This document shows, piece after piece, positions 9,419 to 39,959 of a stretch of DNA of 64,000 bases (position 1 is the stretch's first letter; each line of letters begins with the position of its first letter). The translations under genes were made by a program, and so were the position numbers. The stretch comes from a virus (taxonomy: Duplodnaviria; Heunggongvirae; Uroviricota; Caudoviricetes): the IMG/VR virus record IMGVR_UViG_2795385694_000001; one strand, written 5' to 3'. The notes under the pieces were generated by a model. That model was not told where the DNA came from and did not search any database. It saw nothing but the letters and a program-made list of their open reading frames with translations.

Positions 9419-10113
9419 GGCCGATCCTCCAAGCCCTGGATTATCTCGATGATCTGATCAAGCGCCACGGGCTTGTCGTCCCACGCGTCAAGACCGACGT
9501 GAATCTGATTGATACGTGCTGGTTTGTTGCGCAGCGCAGCACCACGCCGCTTGGCCTCCCGGCCACCGATACTCAGCTTCTCTGGGCTATGCGTGTGGCC
9601 ATGCAAGATGTAATGCCCATAATCAGGCAGGCGCCACTCGGGATAGCGATCCTCATCCGTGTGGTCGCCCGTGTACGGAAAATGTGACAGCATCGCGGTC
9701 ACGTGACCATCTCTCAGCGGAATTCGAACTTTCGCGGCCAACTGAACGCACTCGAACGGCGCAGGCCTGTCGGGTTGATCCTGGCCAAGATAGATGGGCA
9801 ACCACTTATGCGAGTCGCGGCGCAAAGGATGTGGGCCACAATGATTTCCCGGAATACCGCGCTTGCGGCCAGGGCGAGCACGCAGCCAATCCAGGGCCCT
9901 CAATTGCGCTGTCTTGGTGCCGGACGAAATGTCACCCAACACCCACACGACATCGTCAGGCGCAACCATGCTGTCCCAGTTACGGGCCAGCTGCGCGTCA
10001 TGAGAGTCGATCTCCGCGCCTACGTAGCGTGGTAGCACCCATCCACGAGTGCGTTCCCTGGCCACCTTCTCGTGGCCGATATGTAGGTCAGATGTGAACC
10101 ACACATTGCTCAT
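9415..10113 (-). CDS. calcineurin-like metallophosphoesterase
   Basis: Motifs DLHIGH, VLGDIS, GNHCG and HGHTHS match MPP family signatures. Confidence 0.75.
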   Translation of the reverse strand: MSNVWFTSDLHIGHEKVARERTRGWVLPRYVGAEIDSHDAQLARNWDSMVAPDDVVWVLGDISSGTKTAQLRALDWLRARPGRKRGIPGNHCGPHPLRRDSHKWLPIYLGQDQPDRPAPFECVQLAAKVRIPLRDGHVTAMLSHFPYTGDHTDEDRYPEWRLPDYGHYILHGHTHSPEKLSIGGREAKRRGAALRNKPARINQIHVGLDAWDDKPVALDQIIEIIQGLEDRP

Positions 10114-11153
10114 TCGATCACCTCAGTGAATGGCCCGAATCGCTCTTCGAGCAGACCCATGGAGCGCAAGGTGTACCACTCCTCGTCCCCAACCTTCGAC
10201 TTCCATGAACCTGAGACGAACTTGTACCGACGCCCTATTCGGCCATCTACAGGACTCCACACCGTTCCGTCTCTAGCCTCTTCACAATCCAGGCTCGGAA
10301 GTACACGGGGCTCAAGGATTTCGGTGTAGGGGGCATATGTGGGAGACGGGTTGCCGACAGCCCAAATGTCAGGACATTCGCGCCAGCGCCAGCCGTTCTG
10401 GTACTTCCATTCATCCCCGTCACGGTCCCGCCACCGCGATCCCTGCTCGTCTACCCCTAGACGGTCAACGACACGGGGTTTACGTCCGGTGGCGTCTTTG
10501 AATTTGACCCTCTGTTGATGGTCTGCCACGAAGTCGATTGCCGGTTCCTGTTGTGCCGTAACGTCAAAGTCAACCGAACTTTGACTTTCGTTGGACTTTC
10601 CCGGTTCCTGTTGTGCTGTTGGGTCGATTCGCTTGACCGGCCTGAACTGCTCAATGAACCGCTCGACAGGATCGTTGGCGCTGGACCATTCCCCGATCTC
10701 GTTCACCGAGGAACAGGTGTACAGGATTCGGTTTACGGTCTCTTCCCAATAGTCACGCTCCCGGAGCGCGCTATCTTCCGCCTTATCGAGGCGATCGATC
10801 TCCGCGTGTAGTTCATCGAGCGTCTTCCCTGTCGGGTCGTAGATGACAGGCCAAGAGTCTGCGTCGTCCGCATCGGTAGGTTCTTCTGCGAACAACTCCG
10901 AGTCGTACAGTGGCTTGTAGCTCCAATGGGGCGAGCCCCAGAATTTGTCTCGGTCGCCTTGGACCCGGATGGCTACAGCCTCCCCGTCTGGTCGTCGTGC
11001 GATGGTGCCAACAGGCGCACCCTCGGGGACGCTGTTAGCGGCAGCGATCATTGCGTCTACCTCGTAGAGGCCGATCACTTCATCGACATTGAACGATAGG
11101 TAGTCAGCCATCGCTTTCCTCTGCGCTTCAGACGGATTCAACACGTTCACCAA
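10110..11153 (-). CDS. hypothetical protein with internal TAQQEP repeat and a C-terminal SLDCxEARDGTVW domain
   Basis: ORF track; the C-terminal ~60 aa are paralogous to the C-terminus of the 37110..37577 product. Confidence 0.55.
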   Translation of the reverse strand: MVNVLNPSEAQRKAMADYLSFNVDEVIGLYEVDAMIAAANSVPEGAPVGTIARRPDGEAVAIRVQGDRDKFWGSPHWSYKPLYDSELFAEEPTDADDADSWPVIYDPTGKTLDELHAEIDRLDKAEDSALRERDYWEETVNRILYTCSSVNEIGEWSSANDPVERFIEQFRPVKRIDPTAQQEPGKSNESQSSVDFDVTAQQEPAIDFVADHQQRVKFKDATGRKPRVVDRLGVDEQGSRWRDRDGDEWKYQNGWRWRECPDIWAVGNPSPTYAPYTEILEPRVLPSLDCEEARDGTVWSPVDGRIGRRYKFVSGSWKSKVGDEEWYTLRSMGLLEERFGPFTEVIE

Positions 11154-12299: not shown

Positions 12300-12812
12300 T
12301 CACCGTGCAAGAGCGCACGGTCCAGTGTGTGGGTCGACGTGGTAACTGGCTGGTGGTGAACATAGCGGGCCGCTGTAGCCGAAATTGGTAACCGAGATCC
12401 CCGCGCGTTCTGCTCGCTTCATGCAATCCCAGGTACCGCGTGAATCCTTCAACGGGAAGGCGATACACGTATCGGCACCACGGTCGACCATCTCCTGGTT
12501 TCGCAGGTGCCCAGCGACCGGGCAATAGCGAGTACCGTTCTTCCACCGAACGGCATGAGTGCAGTGCTGGTCGCAGTCTCGGTACCAGTCCGCAGGAACG
12601 CCCTCGTTCATTACCGGAAGGCCCTTAGCCATCGCTTCGTCGGCCCACTGCGATGCGAACAGGTCAGCACCGCTCGGGCACTCCCCCTGCACCACAACGA
12701 GATCGCCCTGGCCGCGCTTCCCTGCAATCGCAAGCTGGGCATTCAGAGCGGAACGTACGAACTTACGGGACGGCCAGGCCCGACTACCTGTAACCAGAAC
12801 GCGGCGCGTCAT
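12300..12812 (-). CDS. SLOG/DUF2493 (YspA-like) protein; apparent frameshift near the 3' end
   Basis: VLVTGSRAW...VVQGECPSGADLFASQWA...PADW motifs; a coding-like frame continues to 12184. Confidence 0.6.
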   Translation of the reverse strand: MTRRVLVTGSRAWPSRKFVRSALNAQLAIAGKRGQGDLVVVQGECPSGADLFASQWADEAMAKGLPVMNEGVPADWYRDCDQHCTHAVRWKNGTRYCPVAGHLRNQEMVDRGADTCIAFPLKDSRGTWDCMKRAERAGISVTNFGYSGPLCSPPASYHVDPHTGPCALAR

Positions 12813-12979
12813 AGCAAGGCACCCACAACCGTCACCAATAGGCCGATCACCGCAACGACCATCGCAACCGGCAATAGTGTCAGCGGCAGGTCATAGACCA
12901 AACCCATGACGCACATTCCTGACGGAACCCCCACGAGTACGCCCGACCAGTATGGAACGAGAGGGTTCAATGCCCCCAC
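12809..12979 (-). CDS. small two-TM membrane protein
   Basis: Hydrophobic C-terminal half of the 12809..13219 ORF; GTG or ATG internal start; ATGA overlap with the downstream gene. Confidence 0.3.
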   Translation of the reverse strand: MGALNPLVPYWSGVLVGVPSGMCVMGLVYDLPLTLLPVAMVVAVIGLLVTVVGALL

Positions 12980-13073: not shown

Positions 13074-13373
13074 TCATAGCTTCTCCAGCTTGTAGGTTGA
13101 AAGAACTTTCCGGATCGCGCCTGGATAAGTCCACCCCTGTCCGGCCTCCTCTTCCACGGCGGCAATGAAGGCCTTCTCGACAGCCTCCTGCTCCTCAAGT
13201 GCCTGGTAAGTCTCAGCACGCTCTCCGAGCCATAGCGCGACCTCTCGGATTCGGTCCGTGCCTGGACTAGATGGGCCGGAAGAAATCCCGCGCCATATAA
13301 TGTCGCGCGCGAACAAAATCATTTCCGGCGTGACAGTCGGAATCCTCTCGAAGTCATAGGGATTCGATGTCAT
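13074..13373 (-). CDS. hypothetical protein
   Basis: ORF track; ATG 13373. Confidence 0.5.
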   Translation of the reverse strand: MTSNPYDFERIPTVTPEMILFARDIIWRGISSGPSSPGTDRIREVALWLGERAETYQALEEQEAVEKAFIAAVEEEAGQGWTYPGAIRKVLSTYKLEKL

Positions 13374-13484: not shown

Positions 13485-13560
13485 TACCAATGCTATTGAG
13501 CGATTCGGGGTTCATGTGGGTACGAAAAATGCCCCCAGCTTTCGCTGAGGGCTCTTCGAG

Positions 13561-16179: not shown

Positions 16180-16473
16180 ATTGTTAGAGGCTGAGAGTAC
16201 ACCCGCTATCGAGAACCTTTCGCAGCATTATGGATTCGCTGCTTCTCCAGGCCATCCCTGACCTAGTTCTCACGCCTGGTCCGTTACCGTGAACCACTCG
16301 TTATGCCGAAAGCTACTCTGCGGCTTTCCCTTCGCGATGAGATGGCCGTCTCACTGCTGCAGTACTTGCCTACAAACCGCACTCACCTTGCGGGACTATT
16401 GTGCGGCCCAGATTCCCGAGGGTCTGGGATTAAGGCGCTTTTGCTCCTCGGCAGGGGAAGGACTTTTGCTTTT

Positions 16474-16545
16474 TATTGACGACGGGACTTGAACCCGCAC
16501 ATCCAGTTTCCAATAACTGGTGACCTACCGTTGGTCTACGCCATT
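16474..16545 (-). tRNA. tRNA with a non-standard 8-nt (or 6-nt) anticodon loop; identity unresolved
   Basis: D-arm GACC-AACGGTA-GGTC, T-arm GCGGG-TTCAAGT-CCCGT; anticodon region CCAGT-TATTGGAA-ACTGG. Confidence 0.45.
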
Positions 16546-16999
16546 CTCGCAGCGGAGAATGATTTGACTAGAGACGTGCTTCCCCATGAAGTTCCGAACC
16601 CTTTTGGGGCACAGAATGCTTCACGCCTCTCGTGCTTTCGCCTGGCGGGGCTAATTACACTCTCTCTCAACCGCATTGCGAGCCGTCGCCCGACGCGAGA
16701 TCAATCATGGAACACGCCCTTGCTTGCGAAGCTCGGACTCAGTTCCTTCCGCTCCACAGGGCGCTTGTTCGATAGCCTTTTCACACGCACGTACGTGATG
16801 GTGTCCTCAGCACTTTGCCGTTGGACGGGGCGTAACTCGCAACCTGGCAGCCATCTCTGACTGCTCAAGGATTGGATTGCATGGATTGCCCTTGCGGGTG
16901 GTGGGTTGTCACCCCACCTTTCACCACCTTGCGGTGGCTTATGGGCCATGCCCCGAATATCTTAACTATATCTCCCACAACGGAGTTCGTGTGGGTGAG

Positions 17000-22793: not shown

Positions 22794-23059
22794 TCGGGGG
22801 CCGCGAAGCAGTCGAGGGTCGTACCAGCGAGAAAGGCCGCGAACAGCCTGTCAGCCATCTCGCCCCGCTCTTCTACGGTCTGCACCCAGACGCTCTTTGG
22901 AGACGCTACGAGCGTGTCGGGGCCTGCGACGATTAGGAGGTAGCGTCCATCCTCCAGCGCAACAGTGAGGTGTCCGTTGGAGTAGTGGAATGGGAGCCGC
23001 GTCCCTGGTGTTTTCAAAGTTTCCATGTGTCCCAGTCTATTTCGGTAAAATGGGATCAT
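22790..23059 (-). CDS. hypothetical protein
   Basis: Start placed at the ATG inside the ACCCACATGATCCC motif (MIPFYRNRLG); the longer annotated form overlaps the upstream gene. Confidence 0.45.
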   Translation of the reverse strand: MIPFYRNRLGHMETLKTPGTRLPFHYSNGHLTVALEDGRYLLIVAGPDTLVASPKSVWVQTVEERGEMADRLFAAFLAGTTLDCFAAPE

Positions 23060-35704: not shown

Positions 35705-35932
35705 TCACTTAGAAAAATCTTCAAGAGACTTAGCCACCAGCCAGACCATTCCGGCAACGAGCGCGATCACCACCGCGAGCGCAATCGGGCCCCAGAGAGG
35801 GGCAGTGACCCACCACCACGACCAATCCTGAACCGGGTTCTCCCAAGGGCAGATTTTCATCATGGCGAGAATGCCGAAGAGAACCGTTCCGCCTAGACCC
35901 GAAATCGCCTGAGAATTCCCAGAATCACTCAC
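35705..35932 (-). CDS. small two-TM membrane protein
   Basis: GTG start with GTGA overlap; GTVLFGILAMMKI and WVTAPLWGPIALAVVIALVAGMVWLV. Confidence 0.4.
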   Translation of the reverse strand: MSDSGNSQAISGLGGTVLFGILAMMKICPWENPVQDWSWWWVTAPLWGPIALAVVIALVAGMVWLVAKSLEDFSK

Positions 35933-36360
35933 GCTGGTGTCACCTTCTTCTGAGCCTGCAGGACTGTGCCGTGGTTCCGGGCAACCCCTCGGACAAGTTC
36001 GACAACCTGTCCCTGAGTGCGGCTCGGGTCGTCGTTGTAAGCCGACACGTCCCCGCCGAATCCAGCTGGGATGGCGCGCGAGATCAACCGGTGAGCACCC
36101 CACCAAGCGCGCATATCGTCCCGAGCGGCGGACTTACCCACCGCAGCGTCCAAGGCTCCAAGGATGTCGTAGCGCACGGTGTCCCCGATACGCTCATGTC
36201 GCACACCCTGCGTCCAACCATTTGCCAGAAGGCGCGCCGCAATCTGGAGTGTTGCCGCTACAGCCTCGGGATCATCCAGCACCACAACGTTATTCTTGCG
36301 GGCGAGACGGCGTAGCCAATCAGCAGTAGACATAGCTGTAATTTTATCAACTACCCACAT
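35929..36360 (-). CDS. hypothetical protein
   Basis: ATG 36360 is the central CATG of a CTACCCACATGATG motif. Confidence 0.5.
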   Translation of the reverse strand: MWVVDKITAMSTADWLRRLARKNNVVVLDDPEAVAATLQIAARLLANGWTQGVRHERIGDTVRYDILGALDAAVGKSAARDDMRAWWGAHRLISRAIPAGFGGDVSAYNDDPSRTQGQVVELVRGVARNHGTVLQAQKKVTPA

Positions 36361-36623: not shown

Positions 36624-37109
36624 GTTCGTGTGGGTATGAGCGCCGAGGGACACGACCCCCTCGGCGGCGCGACTGCGCACTCAGGTCGACAGGAAGGGAT
36701 ACTACTTTGCTCGGCCTCCCTGAGTCTCGAAACCCATTCTACTGATCCTGGCTTAGATGGAATCCCACAACGGAAATAATGAACCATTTCCGCAGGTCAG
36801 GGTGTTTCACCCACATGAACCCATGCGCCATGTCGTAGCCTCCTAAAAGGAGAGTGCGAACGCAGTGAGCACGCACCTCCCGCTAGGGAGGCCCACGCCG
36901 GATTGGCGTGGCTGCCCGGAGGGCATCAACCTCCAGACCGCAGCGTCCCCACTTGAGCATGGTTCTCGGTGAAATGAATAACCCTTGCACTCAAGGTATC
37001 TCACGTTGAGATGGAGGTAGTCGTTACGTAAGTCGGGAACGGTACTAGAGCGCGTGCGCGCGAGCCCGCTACCCACATGAACCCGAAATGCGCTGCAAGA
37101 CTTTGACGC

Positions 37110-37577
37110 ATGGGAATTGAAGTACAGAAGGCTCGCGGGAACGAGGTCATCTACCGCACCCCGGACGGCCCGATCCACATCAAGGCTTGGGATGACGAGA
37201 ATGGTAGGTGGTACGTATCGCTGAACGCCCCTGACCGGTACCCGAACGGATCACGCAAGCAAACTACCCGCACCCTGCATATCGGCACGCAGTTTCGCGG
37301 CGATATCGAGGCGTTTGTCCAGGCATTCGCAACGATCTACGAGGCGGCCAGCGCTCCGAAGTCTCTAGAACCCCTCCGTGTGCTTACGTCCCTAGACTGC
37401 GATGAAGCGCGTGACGGCACGGTGTGGGCTGACTCGGATGAGGGATTCCCTTTCCACTACCGATTCCGGGGTAGTCACTGGGAATATTTCGCTCTCGAGG
37501 GTGAGCGCAGGTGGGCGGCGCTGGACGACCCACACTTGCTTAGCGGTTGCGGCCCCTATGTCGAGGTGCCCGCGTGA
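37110..37577 (+). CDS. hypothetical protein with a C-terminal SLDCDEARDGTVW domain
   Basis: First gene of the + strand island; C-terminal domain paralogous to the 10110..11153 product. Confidence 0.55.
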   Translation: MGIEVQKARGNEVIYRTPDGPIHIKAWDDENGRWYVSLNAPDRYPNGSRKQTTRTLHIGTQFRGDIEAFVQAFATIYEAASAPKSLEPLRVLTSLDCDEARDGTVWADSDEGFPFHYRFRGSHWEYFALEGERRWAALDDPHLLSGCGPYVEVPA

Positions 37578-38242
37578 GCCATCGCTCCCCTCGCCACAAA
37601 GAGGTCGCATCAAAAGGACTAATCCTCCTCGCTGAGGTTGGATCCGGCCTCCACGGTGTGACCCTGGAGGGCACCGACGACCATGACGAGATGGGTATCT
37701 GCATTCCCCCACCGGAATGCGTTCTGGGCCTGGAGAAGTTCGAGCAGTACACCGATCGTTGGCACTCAGACGGGACACGCATTCCTGACGGAGTGCGCAG
37801 TCAGCATGGCGATACCGACCACACGACGTATGCGCTGAACAAGTGGGCTCGCCTTGCAGCGCAGGGGAACCCGACCGTTCTACTCCCGTTGTTCGCACCC
37901 AAGGGAAAGATCTATAAGCAGACGCTGGAGGGCACTCAACTTCTTAGGGCCCGGAGTCTGTTCCTCTCGAGGGACGCTGGATGGCGGTTCCATGGGTATC
38001 TGAAAGCCCAGCGTGCGCGCATGATCGGCGAAAAGGGTGTGTCGAAACACAAGAATCGCCGCGAGCTGGTGGAGCAGTTCGGTTTCGACACGAAGATGGC
38101 CTACCACGCTCTGCGCCTGGCTGTTCAGGGTTCAGAATTGATGACTCGCCAAACCATCACAGTTCCCATGGCTGCTTCGAACGTGAGTTGGCTTCGGTAC
38201 GTGCGCAATGGCGGGGCATCACTCGAGGACGTGACGCGGTAG
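37574..38242 (+). CDS. Pol-beta superfamily nucleotidyltransferase; ORF ends at an in-frame TAG with a coding-like 44-codon extension to 38377
   Basis: LLAEVGSGLHGVTLEGTDDHDEMGI matches the hG[GS]x9-13DhDh NTase motif; GTG start overlaps the upstream stop. Confidence 0.55.
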   Translation: MSHRSPRHKEVASKGLILLAEVGSGLHGVTLEGTDDHDEMGICIPPPECVLGLEKFEQYTDRWHSDGTRIPDGVRSQHGDTDHTTYALNKWARLAAQGNPTVLLPLFAPKGKIYKQTLEGTQLLRARSLFLSRDAGWRFHGYLKAQRARMIGEKGVSKHKNRRELVEQFGFDTKMAYHALRLAVQGSELMTRQTITVPMAASNVSWLRYVRNGGASLEDVTR

Positions 38243-38395
38243 CTGGATCGCCTTACCGCTGCGCTCGAAATCGACATCGCGGCCTCGAGCCTCCCCGATC
38301 ACGTCGACCACGACCAACTGAACGACTTTCTCATCGGCCTGCACTACAGCTACTGGAAATGCACCGGTCAACTCTAAACACGAAGGGATAAGCAT

Positions 38396-38755
38396 ATGAG
38401 CAACAAGCGCAAGGACAGCATCGGAGTTCTCTCCAAGACCCAGGGAATGGTCAAGCTCGCGAAGCCGGGACCACCTGTTGCGGTTGGCACTCGCGTCACT
38501 GGGCACAACCTGGGCGCAGTGACGCACATTATCTCGATCGAAGCTGAGCGCGTAGGTGAGAAGCGTGCCATCGGTATCACTTTCAATGAGGATGGCAGCC
38601 TTCACGCTGTGACCGTCCACTCCGCCGAAGGTCCGCTCGCGGAATTCAAGCCAGGCACCCTCCTGAGCATTGGCGATAGTGGAGACCTTGTCGTCTTCGA
38701 TGAGGAGTACTTCTTCGACCCCGTCAGCGGTGCCAGGGTGGTTGAGGTTCGCTGA
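38396..38755 (+). CDS. hypothetical protein
   Basis: ATG after ACACGAAGGGATAAGCAT start-associated motif. Confidence 0.55.
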   Translation: MSNKRKDSIGVLSKTQGMVKLAKPGPPVAVGTRVTGHNLGAVTHIISIEAERVGEKRAIGITFNEDGSLHAVTVHSAEGPLAEFKPGTLLSIGDSGDLVVFDEEYFFDPVSGARVVEVR

Positions 38756-39024
38756 TGAAGACCTACGTCCACAACCCCACTGAGGTTGAGGCTATCCAGG
38801 TAGTGCGGCCATGGAAGGGCGTTCAGGACGCTGTCCCGTTCGCTCACATGGTGAAGAAAGCCTCTGGCGCGTTCGACTACTTCAAGGTTTCATTTCCCGG
38901 CATCTCAGAGGTTGAGCGCGCGTACGAAGGTGACTGGATCGTGAAGGACCACGGTTACTACGAAGTGCTCACGAATGTTCAGTTCCAGTATTACTACGGA
39001 GATGCCAATGGCCACGGCGACTGA
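38755..39024 (+). CDS. hypothetical protein
   Basis: TGATG overlap with the upstream gene. Confidence 0.5.
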   Translation: MKTYVHNPTEVEAIQVVRPWKGVQDAVPFAHMVKKASGAFDYFKVSFPGISEVERAYEGDWIVKDHGYYEVLTNVQFQYYYGDANGHGD

Positions 39025-39292
39025 GGCGGATGTCTCGCATCTGGTGGAGTCGGCATTTGATGAATGCGGATCCACCAATAATGATGTCGAGCATCAGGGC
39101 AAAATCGCGGCGCTTTGGGTTGGTCACACTTGCGCTACCTACCTCATGTGCGAGGCACACTTCAAGCGGGCAATCGACGTGCATATCCCTCGGCACAATC
39201 TCAAGATTGCGCAGATTGGCCACATCACCTGCGCGCTGTGTGATCGAAAGTTCCTCACCGCAGAGGAGTTCGTGAAGGTGTATCCACTATGA
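39008..39292 (+). CDS. hypothetical Cys-rich protein
   Basis: ATG 39008 with GGAG RBS; 7 Cys/His residues. Confidence 0.45.
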   Translation: MATATEADVSHLVESAFDECGSTNNDVEHQGKIAALWVGHTCATYLMCEAHFKRAIDVHIPRHNLKIAQIGHITCALCDRKFLTAEEFVKVYPL

Positions 39293-39906
39293 CCATCACA
39301 CTCCCCGACCTTGGGGATCTCGACATGGAGTCCGTGTTGGAGAACTCCTACAAGGACTTCCACTGCAAGGGCTTTGATTACCTCTGCCTGTTTCGCTCAC
39401 CTGAGCTCACGCTGAAGGCCTACTTCTTCGAGGGTGACGCCCAGGACGCGAGTGAGGTGGTGAACCCTCACAACCATCGCTACGACTTCCACACCACGTG
39501 CCTGTCCGGCGCGGTGGAGAATCGCTGGTACCGGTCCTACCCATTCACCTTCGACGCTGAGTCGAAGCCACAGAACTACAACATGTTTGACTGGCACACG
39601 CCTCTCAACGGTGGTGGTGGCTTCACGATCTCTGGTGAGATCACGTTGCAGAATTACAAGTCGATCCAACGCACCCCTGGTGGTGGATACCGGATGGCTG
39701 CAGATGAGCTGCACACCATCAAGATCCTGAAGCCAGACACAGTTCTGTTTCTCGTGCAGTACGAAGACGTGGTGCCATTGGACCAGCCAACGCAGACATT
39801 TACTCAGTCTGTCCAGCCACCTGACCTGTCGGGCCTGTACAACAAGTTCACCGCCGACCAGGCAGTGAAGAGGATTAAGCAGCTCCAGGAGCTGGCGAGG
39901 CCCTGA
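39289..39906 (+). CDS. hypothetical protein, possible cupin-like metalloprotein (NPHNHRYDFH)
   Basis: ATGA overlap upstream; His cluster. Confidence 0.45.
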   Translation: MTITLPDLGDLDMESVLENSYKDFHCKGFDYLCLFRSPELTLKAYFFEGDAQDASEVVNPHNHRYDFHTTCLSGAVENRWYRSYPFTFDAESKPQNYNMFDWHTPLNGGGGFTISGEITLQNYKSIQRTPGGGYRMAADELHTIKILKPDTVLFLVQYEDVVPLDQPTQTFTQSVQPPDLSGLYNKFTADQAVKRIKQLQELARP

Positions 39907-39926
39907 GACCCCCTGTAACGAAAGAA

Positions 39927-39959
39927 CCCCGGCTCACTATGGAGTCGGGGTTTTCTCTT
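39927..39959 (+). terminator. rho-independent (probably bidirectional) terminator
   Basis: CCCCGGCTC-ACTATG-GAGTCGGGG stem followed by TTTTCTCTT; lies between convergent genes. Confidence 0.6.

What the first reader, a model, noticed from the sequence alone, without database searches (positions are those of the whole stretch)
37110..39959. Oppositely oriented six-gene island with its own promoter region and terminator
The island sits in a run of - strand genes. It is preceded by a 430-bp structured intergenic region carrying two motif copies and followed by a strong hairpin terminator (39927..39959). It encodes a Pol-beta NTase, a protein sharing a C-terminal domain with the 10110..11153 product, a Cys-rich protein and a His-rich cupin-like protein. 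The organisation and content are typical of moron, defence or anti-defence, or toxin-antitoxin cassettes. NTases occur in AbiE, MNT-HEPN, CBASS and anti-CBASS contexts.
Basis: inference. Interest (0 to 1): 0.55.

Follow-up and report, generated by a model that had tools for sequence, protein, structure and literature searches.

The report
Conserved phage operon with RNA nucleotidyltransferase
The six genes form a real operon with its own promoters and terminator, but it is a conserved part of a known family of Mycobacterium abscessus prophages built around an RNA-end-repair type enzyme (broken in this copy), not an imported defence or toxin cassette.

Summary
Six translationally coupled + strand genes (37110..39906) lie between - strand genes. 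They follow a ~430-bp intergenic region with two exact copies of ACCCACATGAACCC and end at a conserved hairpin terminator (39927..39959).

The window is a cluster MabI (Mclasvirinae, cluster-M-like) M. abscessus prophage, 97% identical here to prophi86-1. The block is syntenic in every Mclasvirinae genome examined, and its GC content is ordinary. PADLOC gives no hits.

The 14-mer is a phage-wide promoter element: 10 copies against 0.5 expected, with a TANNNT -10 hexamer 12-13 nt downstream. A start codon often lies 25-26 nt downstream, which implies leaderless mRNAs. So the island appears co-regulated with the early-region operons.

The NTase belongs to the RlaP family (PF10127), which adds 1-2 nucleotides to damaged RNA 3' ends. 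It is not an AbiE, MNT or CD-NTase enzyme. The last gene encodes a cupin with three invariant His in a metal-site pattern. It neighbours an RlaP-type NTase in four or five phage lineages. The other four proteins are uncharacterised.

In this copy the NTase carries a premature TAG (W223*). The RtcB ligase gene present in all three GenBank sister prophages is absent from its usual locus.

Verdict: an ordinary conserved accessory operon, plausibly for RNA repair. Moron, defence and TA readings are not supported.

The parts
36624..36636 (-). Degenerate inverted copy of the promoter motif (ACCCACACGAAC), facing the divergent - strand early genes
   Evidence: Inverted-repeat pair I16. The core is exact in prophiGD54-2. 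Rey has a well-matched inverted copy of its own motif at the equivalent place.
36809..36841 (+). Promoter P1: the 14-mer ACCCACATGAACCC (36809..36822), a 13-nt spacer, then -10 hexamer TAGCCT (36836..36841)
   Evidence: The position is conserved in cluster M phages, which carry a different motif (CCTGTAATCAC) there.
36846..36873 (+). Conserved box AAAGGAGAGTGCGAACGCAGTGAGCACG at the predicted 5' end of the P1 transcript. It is either a long 5' leader or a small RNA.
   Evidence: The box is almost invariant between MabI prophages and cluster M1/M2 phages, whose proteins are only ~50% identical. In M1/M2 a hairpin plus T-run terminator follows about 110 nt downstream. MabI lacks that terminator.
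37071..37102 (+). Promoter P2: the 14-mer (37071..37084), a 12-nt spacer, then -10-like hexamer AAGACT (37097..37102). The g1 ATG follows 7 nt later, so the mRNA would be leaderless.
   Evidence: The same geometry of motif, 12 nt, hexamer, 7 nt, ATG occurs at 23052(-) and 26785(-), and is conserved at g1 in five phages.
37110..37577 (+). g1, 155 aa. It has a variable N-terminal domain and a conserved ~65-aa C-terminal domain shared with the 347-aa product of 10110..11153(-). Function unknown.
   Evidence: DNA 37120..37386 has no counterpart in prophi86-1 although the flanks are 97% identical. The AF2 model (pLDDT 76) shows no helix-turn-helix and has no PDB fold match.
37574..38242 (+). g2, an RlaP-family Pol-beta nucleotidyltransferase, truncated at codon 223 by TAG (38240..38242)
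   Evidence: PF10127 at 103.6 bits against a cut-off of 23. phrog_388. G23, S24, D36 and D38 are invariant. Relatives have TGG at this codon. The same 222-aa product is called in assembly GCA_900138155.1.
38243..38377 (+). In-frame remnant encoding the last 44 residues of the NTase. It is conserved and translated in relatives.
38396..38755 (+). g3, 119 aa, unknown function (phrog_4870)
   Evidence: No PDB sequence relative.
38755..39024 (+). g4, 89 aa, unknown function (phrog_419). The motifs HNPTEVxAIQV and EGDWIV are conserved.
   Evidence: No PDB sequence relative.
39008..39292 (+). g5, 94 aa, a Cys/His-rich protein that probably binds zinc (phrog_16604)
   Evidence: C20, H40, C42, C48, H51, C75 and C78 are invariant. 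No significant PDB sequence relative.
39289..39906 (+). g6, 205 aa, a cupin with an invariant three-His pattern (inferred metal site); annotated 'oxidoreductase' in GenBank relatives
39927..39959 (.). Intrinsic terminator hairpin between the convergent g6 and NrdH genes. T-rich tracts follow the stem on both strands, so it is probably bidirectional.

Best explanation
The island is a conserved accessory operon of Mclasvirinae (cluster M / MabI) temperate mycobacteriophages. It is not an acquired cassette.

Transcription (inferred). Two promoters carry the phage's own 14-bp element at the -35 position. P1 gives a transcript that opens with a highly conserved 28-nt box. P2 gives a leaderless mRNA that starts at the g1 ATG and runs through six coupled genes to a probably bidirectional terminator. 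The same element sits on promoters in the early region, including the one in front of the operon that holds RtcB and peptidyl-tRNA hydrolase in prophi86-1. The island is therefore most likely switched on together with those lytic operons.

Proteins. The one assignable enzyme is an RlaP-type nucleotidyltransferase. Characterised family members add 1-2 nucleotides to the 3'-OH of damaged RNA, preferring cleaved tRNA. A cupin with a three-His pattern often accompanies this kind of NTase in actinophages.

Proposed role (inferred). The operon would belong to the phage's translation-maintenance and RNA-repair kit, alongside the tRNA array, tmRNA, RtcB, Pth, an RF1-like protein and a band-7 protein, and would keep tRNAs usable when host ribotoxins cut them.

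This copy. The NTase is cut short by a nonsense codon that removes the conserved C-terminal 44 residues. RtcB is missing from its usual locus. The proposed repair function is therefore probably defunct here.
For: Identity of the element: megablast matches at 97%, 93% and 82% to prophi86-1, prophiT49-2 and prophiGD54-2. These are cluster MabI prophages, organised like cluster M (PMC8092301, PMC9934374).

Synteny: g2 to g5 are conserved in order in M1, M2 and MabI, and g6 in M2 and MabI. The NTase also follows the lysis cassette and NrdH in cluster L.

Promoter element:
- 10 copies against 0.53 expected.
- TANNNT lies at +12/+13 in 6 of 10 copies, against a background of 0.006 (binomial 1e-11).
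- ATG lies 25-26 nt after the motif at 13508(-), 23052(-), 26785(-) and 37071(+).
- In prophi86-1 a copy lies 25 nt before gene 138, which heads the run of genes containing RtcB and Pth.
- No good copy occurs in the structural-gene region.
- M2 phages carry a different motif at the same positions, which suggests a phage-specific factor reads it.

NTase:
- PF10127 RlaP at 1.8e-29, with the GS...DxD motif intact.
- Family biochemistry is described in PMC12776372.
- Relatives occur in 453 phage records, spanning cluster M, C and L mycobacteriophages and Gordonia, Bacillus and Caulobacter phages. Some of these groups also appear among the RtcB hits.

Cupin:
- High-confidence model and cupin fold hits.
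- It lies within two to three genes of an RlaP-type NTase in MabI/M2, Gordonia ClubL, Gordonia Yvonnetastic and a 109-kb metagenomic contig.
- ClubL and Bordetella PHB04, which carry g6 homologues, also encode RtcB.

Decay in this copy:
- TGG->TAG.
- tblastn finds no RtcB in the window, and the RtcB locus is replaced.
- All three GenBank MabI prophages have RtcB and a full-length NTase.
Against: - No expression data exist for MabI or cluster M. The timing is inferred only from the shared promoter motif, which could equally be an operator or an activator site.
- RlaP is defined by adjacency to RNA ligase genes. Here RtcB, where present, lies about 25 kb away.
- The biochemistry comes from two Pseudomonas enzymes in one preprint, and those are only distantly related. 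No PDB or sequence bridge to them was found.
- Four of the six proteins have no assignable function.
- The g6-NTase linkage is absent in about half of the g6 contexts examined.
- In cluster L the equivalent leftward block contains the immunity repressor, so a lysogeny-related role for the slot cannot be excluded.
- The joint loss of RtcB and an intact NTase is a single observation.
Confidence: 0.5

Rival explanations
1. The island is a moron, defence or toxin-antitoxin cassette expressed from the prophage. It would benefit the lysogen, for example by abortive infection through an NTase toxin.
For: - It has the opposite orientation to its neighbours, with its own promoters and terminator.
- TA modules in M. 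abscessus prophages often sit among early genes on the opposite strand (PMC8092301).
- Cluster L keeps its repressor in the equivalent leftward block.
Against: - Placement is conserved and syntenic across Mclasvirinae.
- GC content is normal.
- There are no PADLOC hits.
- The NTase is RlaP, not AbiEii, MNT or CD-NTase, and no HEPN, AbiEi or effector partner was detected.
- The promoters share the early-region motif.
- NTase and cupin also lie among replication and nucleotide-metabolism genes, co-oriented with their neighbours, in Gordonia phages.
Confidence: 0.1
2. The operon is an enzymatic module unrelated to RNA repair. The NTase would nucleotidylate, and the cupin oxidise, some other substrate such as a small molecule, a nucleotide signal, DNA or a protein, to modify host metabolism or evade immunity.
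For: - Pol-beta NTases are functionally diverse.
- The cupin's nearest folds are thiol dioxygenases and small-molecule enzymes.
- One distant g6 homologue sits next to DNA methyltransferases.
- RtcB is not adjacent to the NTase.
Against: - The Pfam assignment to RlaP is strong.
- Tested RlaP enzymes acted only on RNA, not on DNA or protein (PMC12776372).
- The same genomes carry RtcB, Pth and tRNA arrays.
Confidence: 0.2
3. The region is part of the lysis-lysogeny switch. The divergent promoter region, the conserved P1 RNA and/or g1 (or g5) would act as the immunity regulator, which has not yet been located in MabI or cluster M.
For: - The repressor location in MabI is reported as unclear (PMC8092301).
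- The region is a divergent promoter region carrying three copies of a phage-specific motif.
- The intergenic DNA is more conserved than the flanking genes.
- g1 is the first gene, would be leaderless, and is highly variable.
- In cluster L the repressor lies in the equivalent block.
Against: - g1 has no helix-turn-helix and no fold match.
- The g1 N-terminus varies among prophages that share an identical motif.
- The same motif lies on many early-region promoters, so it does not single out this locus.
- No DNA-binding domain was detected in any of the six proteins.
Confidence: 0.15

Closest known systems
Leftward NTase block of cluster M mycobacteriophages and MabI prophages (e.g. prophi86-1 genes 61-66, Rey genes 49-56)
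   Same: Same six genes in the same order and genomic slot, at 97% nucleotide identity to prophi86-1. The promoter motif copies and terminator are conserved.
   Different: - This copy has a nonsense codon in the NTase.
- Its g1 has a different N-terminal segment.
- M2 phages carry extra genes within and after the block, and M1 lacks g6.
RlaP (PF10127), the RNA-ligase-associated Pol-beta nucleotidyltransferases (Pseudomonas RtcB-operon enzymes; T4 NrdC.11 belongs to the family)
   Same: Strong Pfam match and an intact GS...DxD catalytic motif. The sister prophages encode RtcB and other RNA and translation rescue functions.
   Different: - The NTase is not adjacent to an RNA ligase.
- It sits in an operon with a cupin and small proteins that are not described for RlaP systems.
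- It is truncated here, and RtcB is absent from the window.
- Its activity has not been tested.
Three-His cupin thiol dioxygenases (cysteine dioxygenase, mercaptosuccinate dioxygenase, ADO/PCO)
   Different: - Sequence identity is only 13-17% and Foldseek TM-scores are about 0.4.
- The hit list is flat, with many unrelated cupins scoring almost as well.
- There is no Pfam CDO or PCO match.
- The substrate is unknown.
NTase-based defence systems (AbiE, MNT-HEPN, CBASS)
   Same: They also use Pol-beta fold nucleotidyltransferases encoded in small operons.
   Different: No PADLOC model matches, no partner antitoxin, HEPN or effector is present, and the Pfam family is different.

Membership tests
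RlaP (PF10127) nucleotidyltransferase | Match to the family HMM above Pfam's gathering score | tested here: met
   103.6 bits against a cut-off of 23, E = 1.8e-29. phrog_388 'nucleotidyltransferase' at 8.7e-62.
RlaP (PF10127) nucleotidyltransferase | Pol-beta catalytic motif (G-S ... D-x-D) | tested here: met
   G23, S24, D36 and D38 are invariant in eight phage homologues.
RlaP (PF10127) nucleotidyltransferase | Complete C-terminal helical domain, including the terminal helix that packs on the NTase domain (PfRlaP structure, PMC12776372) | tested here: not met
   TAG at codon 223 removes the last 44 residues, which are conserved in relatives. Full-length relatives were not checked structurally.
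RlaP (PF10127) nucleotidyltransferase | Gene neighbourhood with an RNA ligase (RtcB or a 5'-P ligase) | tested here: not met
   No ligase lies in or next to the island. In sister prophages RtcB is about 25 kb away, in the run of genes that follows a promoter with the same motif. RtcB is absent from this window.
RlaP (PF10127) nucleotidyltransferase | Adds 1-2 NMP to RNA 3'-OH ends | not testable with these tools
   This is a biochemical assay. It is known only for two Pseudomonas enzymes.
Anti-phage defence NTase systems (AbiE, MNT-HEPN, CBASS) | Match to a defence-system protein model | tested here: not met
   PADLOC-DB gave 0 families for all six proteins at E <= 0.1.
Anti-phage defence NTase systems (AbiE, MNT-HEPN, CBASS) | Cognate partner (AbiEi, HEPN, or a cyclic-nucleotide effector) encoded adjacent | tested here: not met
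   No such Pfam, PHROG or NCBIfam domain occurs in g1 or g3-g6.
Moron (independently transcribed, horizontally added prophage gene cassette) | Own promoter and terminator | tested here: met
   (sequence-level prediction only).
Moron (independently transcribed, horizontally added prophage gene cassette) | Present in some but not other closely related phages, and/or of deviant composition | tested here: not met
   It is present and syntenic in all seven Mclasvirinae genomes compared. GC is 0.56-0.60, like the rest of the window.
Moron (independently transcribed, horizontally added prophage gene cassette) | Expressed from the repressed prophage | not testable with these tools
   No RNA-seq for a MabI lysogen was found.
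Cupin superfamily (g6) | Double-stranded beta-helix fold | tested here: met
Thiol dioxygenase family (CDO/ADO/PCO) | Family HMM match and family-specific active-site residues beyond the three His | tested here: not met
   No Pfam family at E <= 0.1. Only the HxH...H pattern is shared. The structural hit list is flat.
Intrinsic terminator | G+C-rich hairpin followed by a U-tract | tested here: met
   A 9-bp G+C-rich stem, 6-nt loop and UUUUCUCUU tail, with z = -3.0. Conserved in sister prophages.

The most novel reading that the evidence does not exclude
The RlaP-type NTase, the three-His cupin and the small conserved proteins g3-g5 could form a previously undescribed phage RNA-repair or anti-ribotoxin module. 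In it the cupin or the small proteins would supply a step missing from current RlaP models, for example making RlaP products compatible with RtcB. The module would be co-regulated with RtcB and the tRNA array through a phage-specific promoter element. The joint loss of RtcB and an intact NTase in this prophage would then reflect functional coupling. Separately, the conserved P1 transcript could be a new regulatory small RNA of cluster M / MabI phages.
Probability: 0.15. Interest if true: 0.6.

Novelty: new member of a known kind. Interest (0 to 1): 0.3.

Why it matters
M. abscessus prophages are studied both as drivers of strain diversity and as sources of therapeutic phages. For that work it is useful to know that this opposite-strand block is a conserved, probably lytic-programme operon rather than a lysogenic-conversion or defence cassette.

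If the RNA-repair reading is right, cluster M / MabI phages carry a dispersed but co-regulated kit: a tRNA array, tmRNA, RtcB, RlaP, Pth and an RF1-like protein. Such a kit could counter the many tRNA- and mRNA-cleaving toxins of mycobacteria. The NTase-cupin pairing would then give RlaP biology a new, testable partner.

The promoter motif with its fixed leaderless geometry could also help correct start-codon annotation in this phage group.

Tried and rejected
- Defence and family libraries. PADLOC and NCBIfam scans of all six proteins gave nothing.
- PDB sequence searches. Single-sequence searches for g6 and g2, and profile searches for g3, g4, g5 and the NTase, gave no meaningful hits.
- g1 as an HTH repressor. 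The AF2 model is of moderate confidence (pLDDT 76.5, pTM 0.46). It is beta-rich with one long helix, and Foldseek against the PDB found no hit with E < 0.07.
- A known RNA in the intergenic region. Rfam at E <= 5 returned only a spurious snoRNA hit inside g1. The 268-nt leader is no more stable than shuffled sequence (z = -0.94). RNAalifold on MabI alone, or on MabI plus cluster M, gave no convincing covariation.
- Read-through of the TAG by a phage suppressor tRNA. None of the 21 tRNAs has a CUA anticodon.
- A conserved small protein immediately upstream of g6 across lineages. None was found.
- A universal NTase-g6 linkage. It is absent in Rhodococcus and other contigs and in the Bordetella, Pseudomonas and Daredevil phages.
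- Resources not available. The afdb50 fold library was unavailable. The original cluster M paper (Pope et al. 2014, J Virol) is not held, so I could not check whether the 14-mer corresponds to one of its CR1-CR4 repeats.
- The 'RDF' label in the Rey block. The protein matches only PF25682 (Phage_VG64), so I did not use it as evidence for expression timing.


Full report
**What the window is.** The region 36300..40300 matches three GenBank Mycobacterium abscessus prophages over 84-93% of its length: prophi86-1 at 96.9%, prophiT49-2 at 92.9% and prophiGD54-2 at 81.9%. All are Vilmaviridae/Mclasvirinae. [quoted passage not shown] The window is the reverse complement of those records, so the island is the leftward-transcribed block that lies between the late (structural and lysis) genes and the rightward early genes. 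The exact g6 protein occurs in assembly GCA_900138155.1, the probable source.

**Checking the observation.**
- Six + strand ORFs are present and overlap by 1-17 nt, as in a translationally coupled operon. Flanking genes on both sides are on the - strand.
- The intergenic gap is 429 bp, measured from the longest upstream ORF. It contains two exact copies of ACCCACATGAACCC, at 36809 and 37071.
- The terminator at 39927..39959 is a 9-bp G+C-rich stem followed by UUUUCUCUU, with z = -3.0. It is invariant in the sister prophages. T-rich tracts follow the stem on both strands, so it probably also ends the convergent lysis/NrdH transcript.
- The protein-content claims also hold: a Pol-beta NTase, a g1 C-terminal domain shared with the 347-aa product of 10110..11153(-), a Cys/His-rich g5 and a cupin g6.
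- 'Structured' is not established for the intergenic region.

**The two motif copies are promoters of a phage-wide class.**
- The 14-mer occurs 10 times in the window with at most 2 mismatches, against 0.53 expected. The good copies all lie in the early and tRNA region or in front of the island.
- Six of the ten copies have a TANNNT hexamer 12-13 nt downstream. The background frequency is 0.006, giving a binomial P of about 1e-11.
- At 23052(-), 26785(-), 13508(-) and 37071(+), an ATG follows 25-26 nt after the motif, 6-7 nt after the hexamer. That is the geometry of leaderless mycobacterial mRNAs (established knowledge).
- P2 (37071..37102) would therefore make a leaderless g1 mRNA beginning at 37110. 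This arrangement is conserved in five phages.
- In prophi86-1 one copy lies 25 nt before gene 138, the first of the run of genes that includes RtcB and peptidyl-tRNA hydrolase.
- Cluster M2 and M1 phages have a different motif (CCTGTAATCAC) at exactly the same positions. This suggests a phage-specific factor reads the site, either a repressor or an activator.
- Either way, the island shares its control element with operons that Dedrick et al. predict to be early lytic. This is inference. No transcript data were found.

**The island is conserved, not imported.**
- Orthologues of g2, g3, g4 and g5 lie in the same order and slot in Bongo (M1), in Rey, MrMagoo and Nanosmite (M2), and in the MabI prophages. 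g6 is present in M2 and MabI.
- In the cluster L phage MkaliMitinis3 the NTase again sits in a leftward block convergent with NrdH and the lysis cassette. There it lies downstream of the immunity repressor and an Lsr2-like gene.
- GC content is unremarkable.

**What the proteins are.**
- g2 (NTase). It matches PF10127 (RlaP) at 103.6 bits and no other Pfam family at E <= 0.1. PADLOC finds nothing. A 2025 preprint shows that two Pseudomonas RlaP enzymes add one or two NMPs to RNA 3'-OH ends, prefer cleaved tRNA, do not act on DNA or protein, and can restore aminoacylation of tRNA that has lost a nucleotide (PMC12776372). The catalytic GS...DxD motif is intact. Relatives occur in 453 phage records: cluster M, C and L mycobacteriophages, and Gordonia, Bacillus and Caulobacter phages.
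- NTase-cupin linkage. g6 homologues sit within two or three genes of an RlaP-type NTase in MabI/M2, Gordonia ClubL, Gordonia Yvonnetastic and a 109-kb metagenomic contig. They stand alone elsewhere.
- g1, g3, g4 and g5. They have only unnamed PHROG families or none, and no PDB relatives.
- g1 in detail. It is restricted to Mycobacteroides prophages. Its N-terminal half has been replaced relative to prophi86-1, inside DNA that is otherwise 97% identical.

**Genomic context supports an RNA and translation theme.** prophi86-1 encodes 20 tRNAs, a tmRNA, an RF1-like protein, RtcB, peptidyl-tRNA hydrolase and a band-7 protein. The window has the tRNA array, the tmRNA and PTH2. ClubL and Bordetella PHB04, which carry g6 homologues, also encode RtcB.

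**This copy is decayed.**
- Codon 223 of the NTase is TAG where all relatives have TGG. This removes 44 conserved residues. In the PfRlaP structure the corresponding C-terminal helix locks the two domains together.
- No suppressor tRNA is present.
- RtcB is present in all three GenBank MabI prophages but absent from the window. Its locus is replaced by about 265 bp of unrelated sequence.
- Joint loss of the two putative repair enzymes is suggestive of coupling, but it is a single case.

**Verdict.** The moron/defence/TA interpretation is not supported. The weaker 'anti-defence' reading survives only through the RlaP link. The best explanation, at confidence 0.5, is a conserved, phage-programme accessory operon centred on an RNA 3'-end nucleotidyltransferase and a cupin enzyme. 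It probably belongs to the phage's tRNA and translation maintenance kit, and it is partly inactivated in this prophage. It is already annotated in sister records, as 'nucleotidyltransferase' and 'oxidoreductase'. It is therefore a new member of a known kind, of modest interest.

Noticed in passing
window 16188..16631 (-): A full-length GOLLD RNA (Rfam RF02032, 195.7 bits against a gathering score of 150, E = 1.2e-53) lies inside the tRNA array. It encloses the odd ARAGORN call 'tRNA-??? anticodon (tg)' at 16474..16545.
   Followed up: no
window 38240..38242: An in-frame TAG in the RlaP NTase where prophi86-1 and prophiGD54-2 have TGG. The remaining 44 codons stay in frame and are conserved. 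The same 222-aa product is called in GCA_900138155.1.
   Followed up: yes
window ~12702..12966 and 13074..13373 (-): The RtcB RNA ligase gene present in prophi86-1, prophiT49-2 and prophiGD54-2 is missing. Its locus is replaced by short unrelated sequence, and an adjacent 99-aa ORF has no Pfam match.
   Followed up: partly
window 13508, 16983, 23052, 26785, 30785 (-); 36809, 37071 (+): A phage-wide promoter element, ACCCACATGAACCC, has TANNNT 12-13 nt downstream and often an ATG exactly 25-26 nt downstream, implying leaderless mRNAs. In prophi86-1 the annotated start of gene 89 lies inside a motif copy, so that start may be mis-called.
   Followed up: partly
window 36846..36873; Rey L003 1900..2010; Bongo L018 2990..3099: A 28-nt box (AAAGGA[G/C]AGTGCGAACG[C]CAGTGAGC) just downstream of P1 is nearly invariant between MabI prophages and cluster M1/M2 phages. 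In M1/M2 a strong hairpin plus T-run terminator follows about 110 nt later, which suggests an unannotated small RNA gene. MabI lacks that terminator.
   Followed up: partly
window 37120..37386: The N-terminal half of g1 has no DNA counterpart in prophi86-1 although both flanks are ~97% identical. Protein identity is 49% overall. This is a sharp mosaic joint or a hypervariable domain. Another database relative (P0083) is frameshifted at the g1/g2 junction.
   Followed up: partly
window 10110..11153 (-): A 347-aa protein has a DUF7183 match (PF23811, 4.6e-07) and a C-terminal ~65-aa domain (LDCxEARDGTVW...GPxxEV) shared with g1. Its internal W/G/D-rich segment resembles part of the cluster M2 g1 orthologues.
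   Followed up: partly
window 35929..36360 (-); L007 8754..9155: A DUF6197 protein is encoded next to the island on the opposite strand. A DUF6197 gene also lies a few kb from the RlaP-cupin pair on an unrelated 109-kb metagenomic phage contig.
   Followed up: no
prophi86-1 gene 90 (L013 4588..5025): The sister prophage encodes a second cupin, annotated 'cysteine dioxygenase', in the early region. It lies one gene downstream of a copy of the promoter motif.
   Followed up: no
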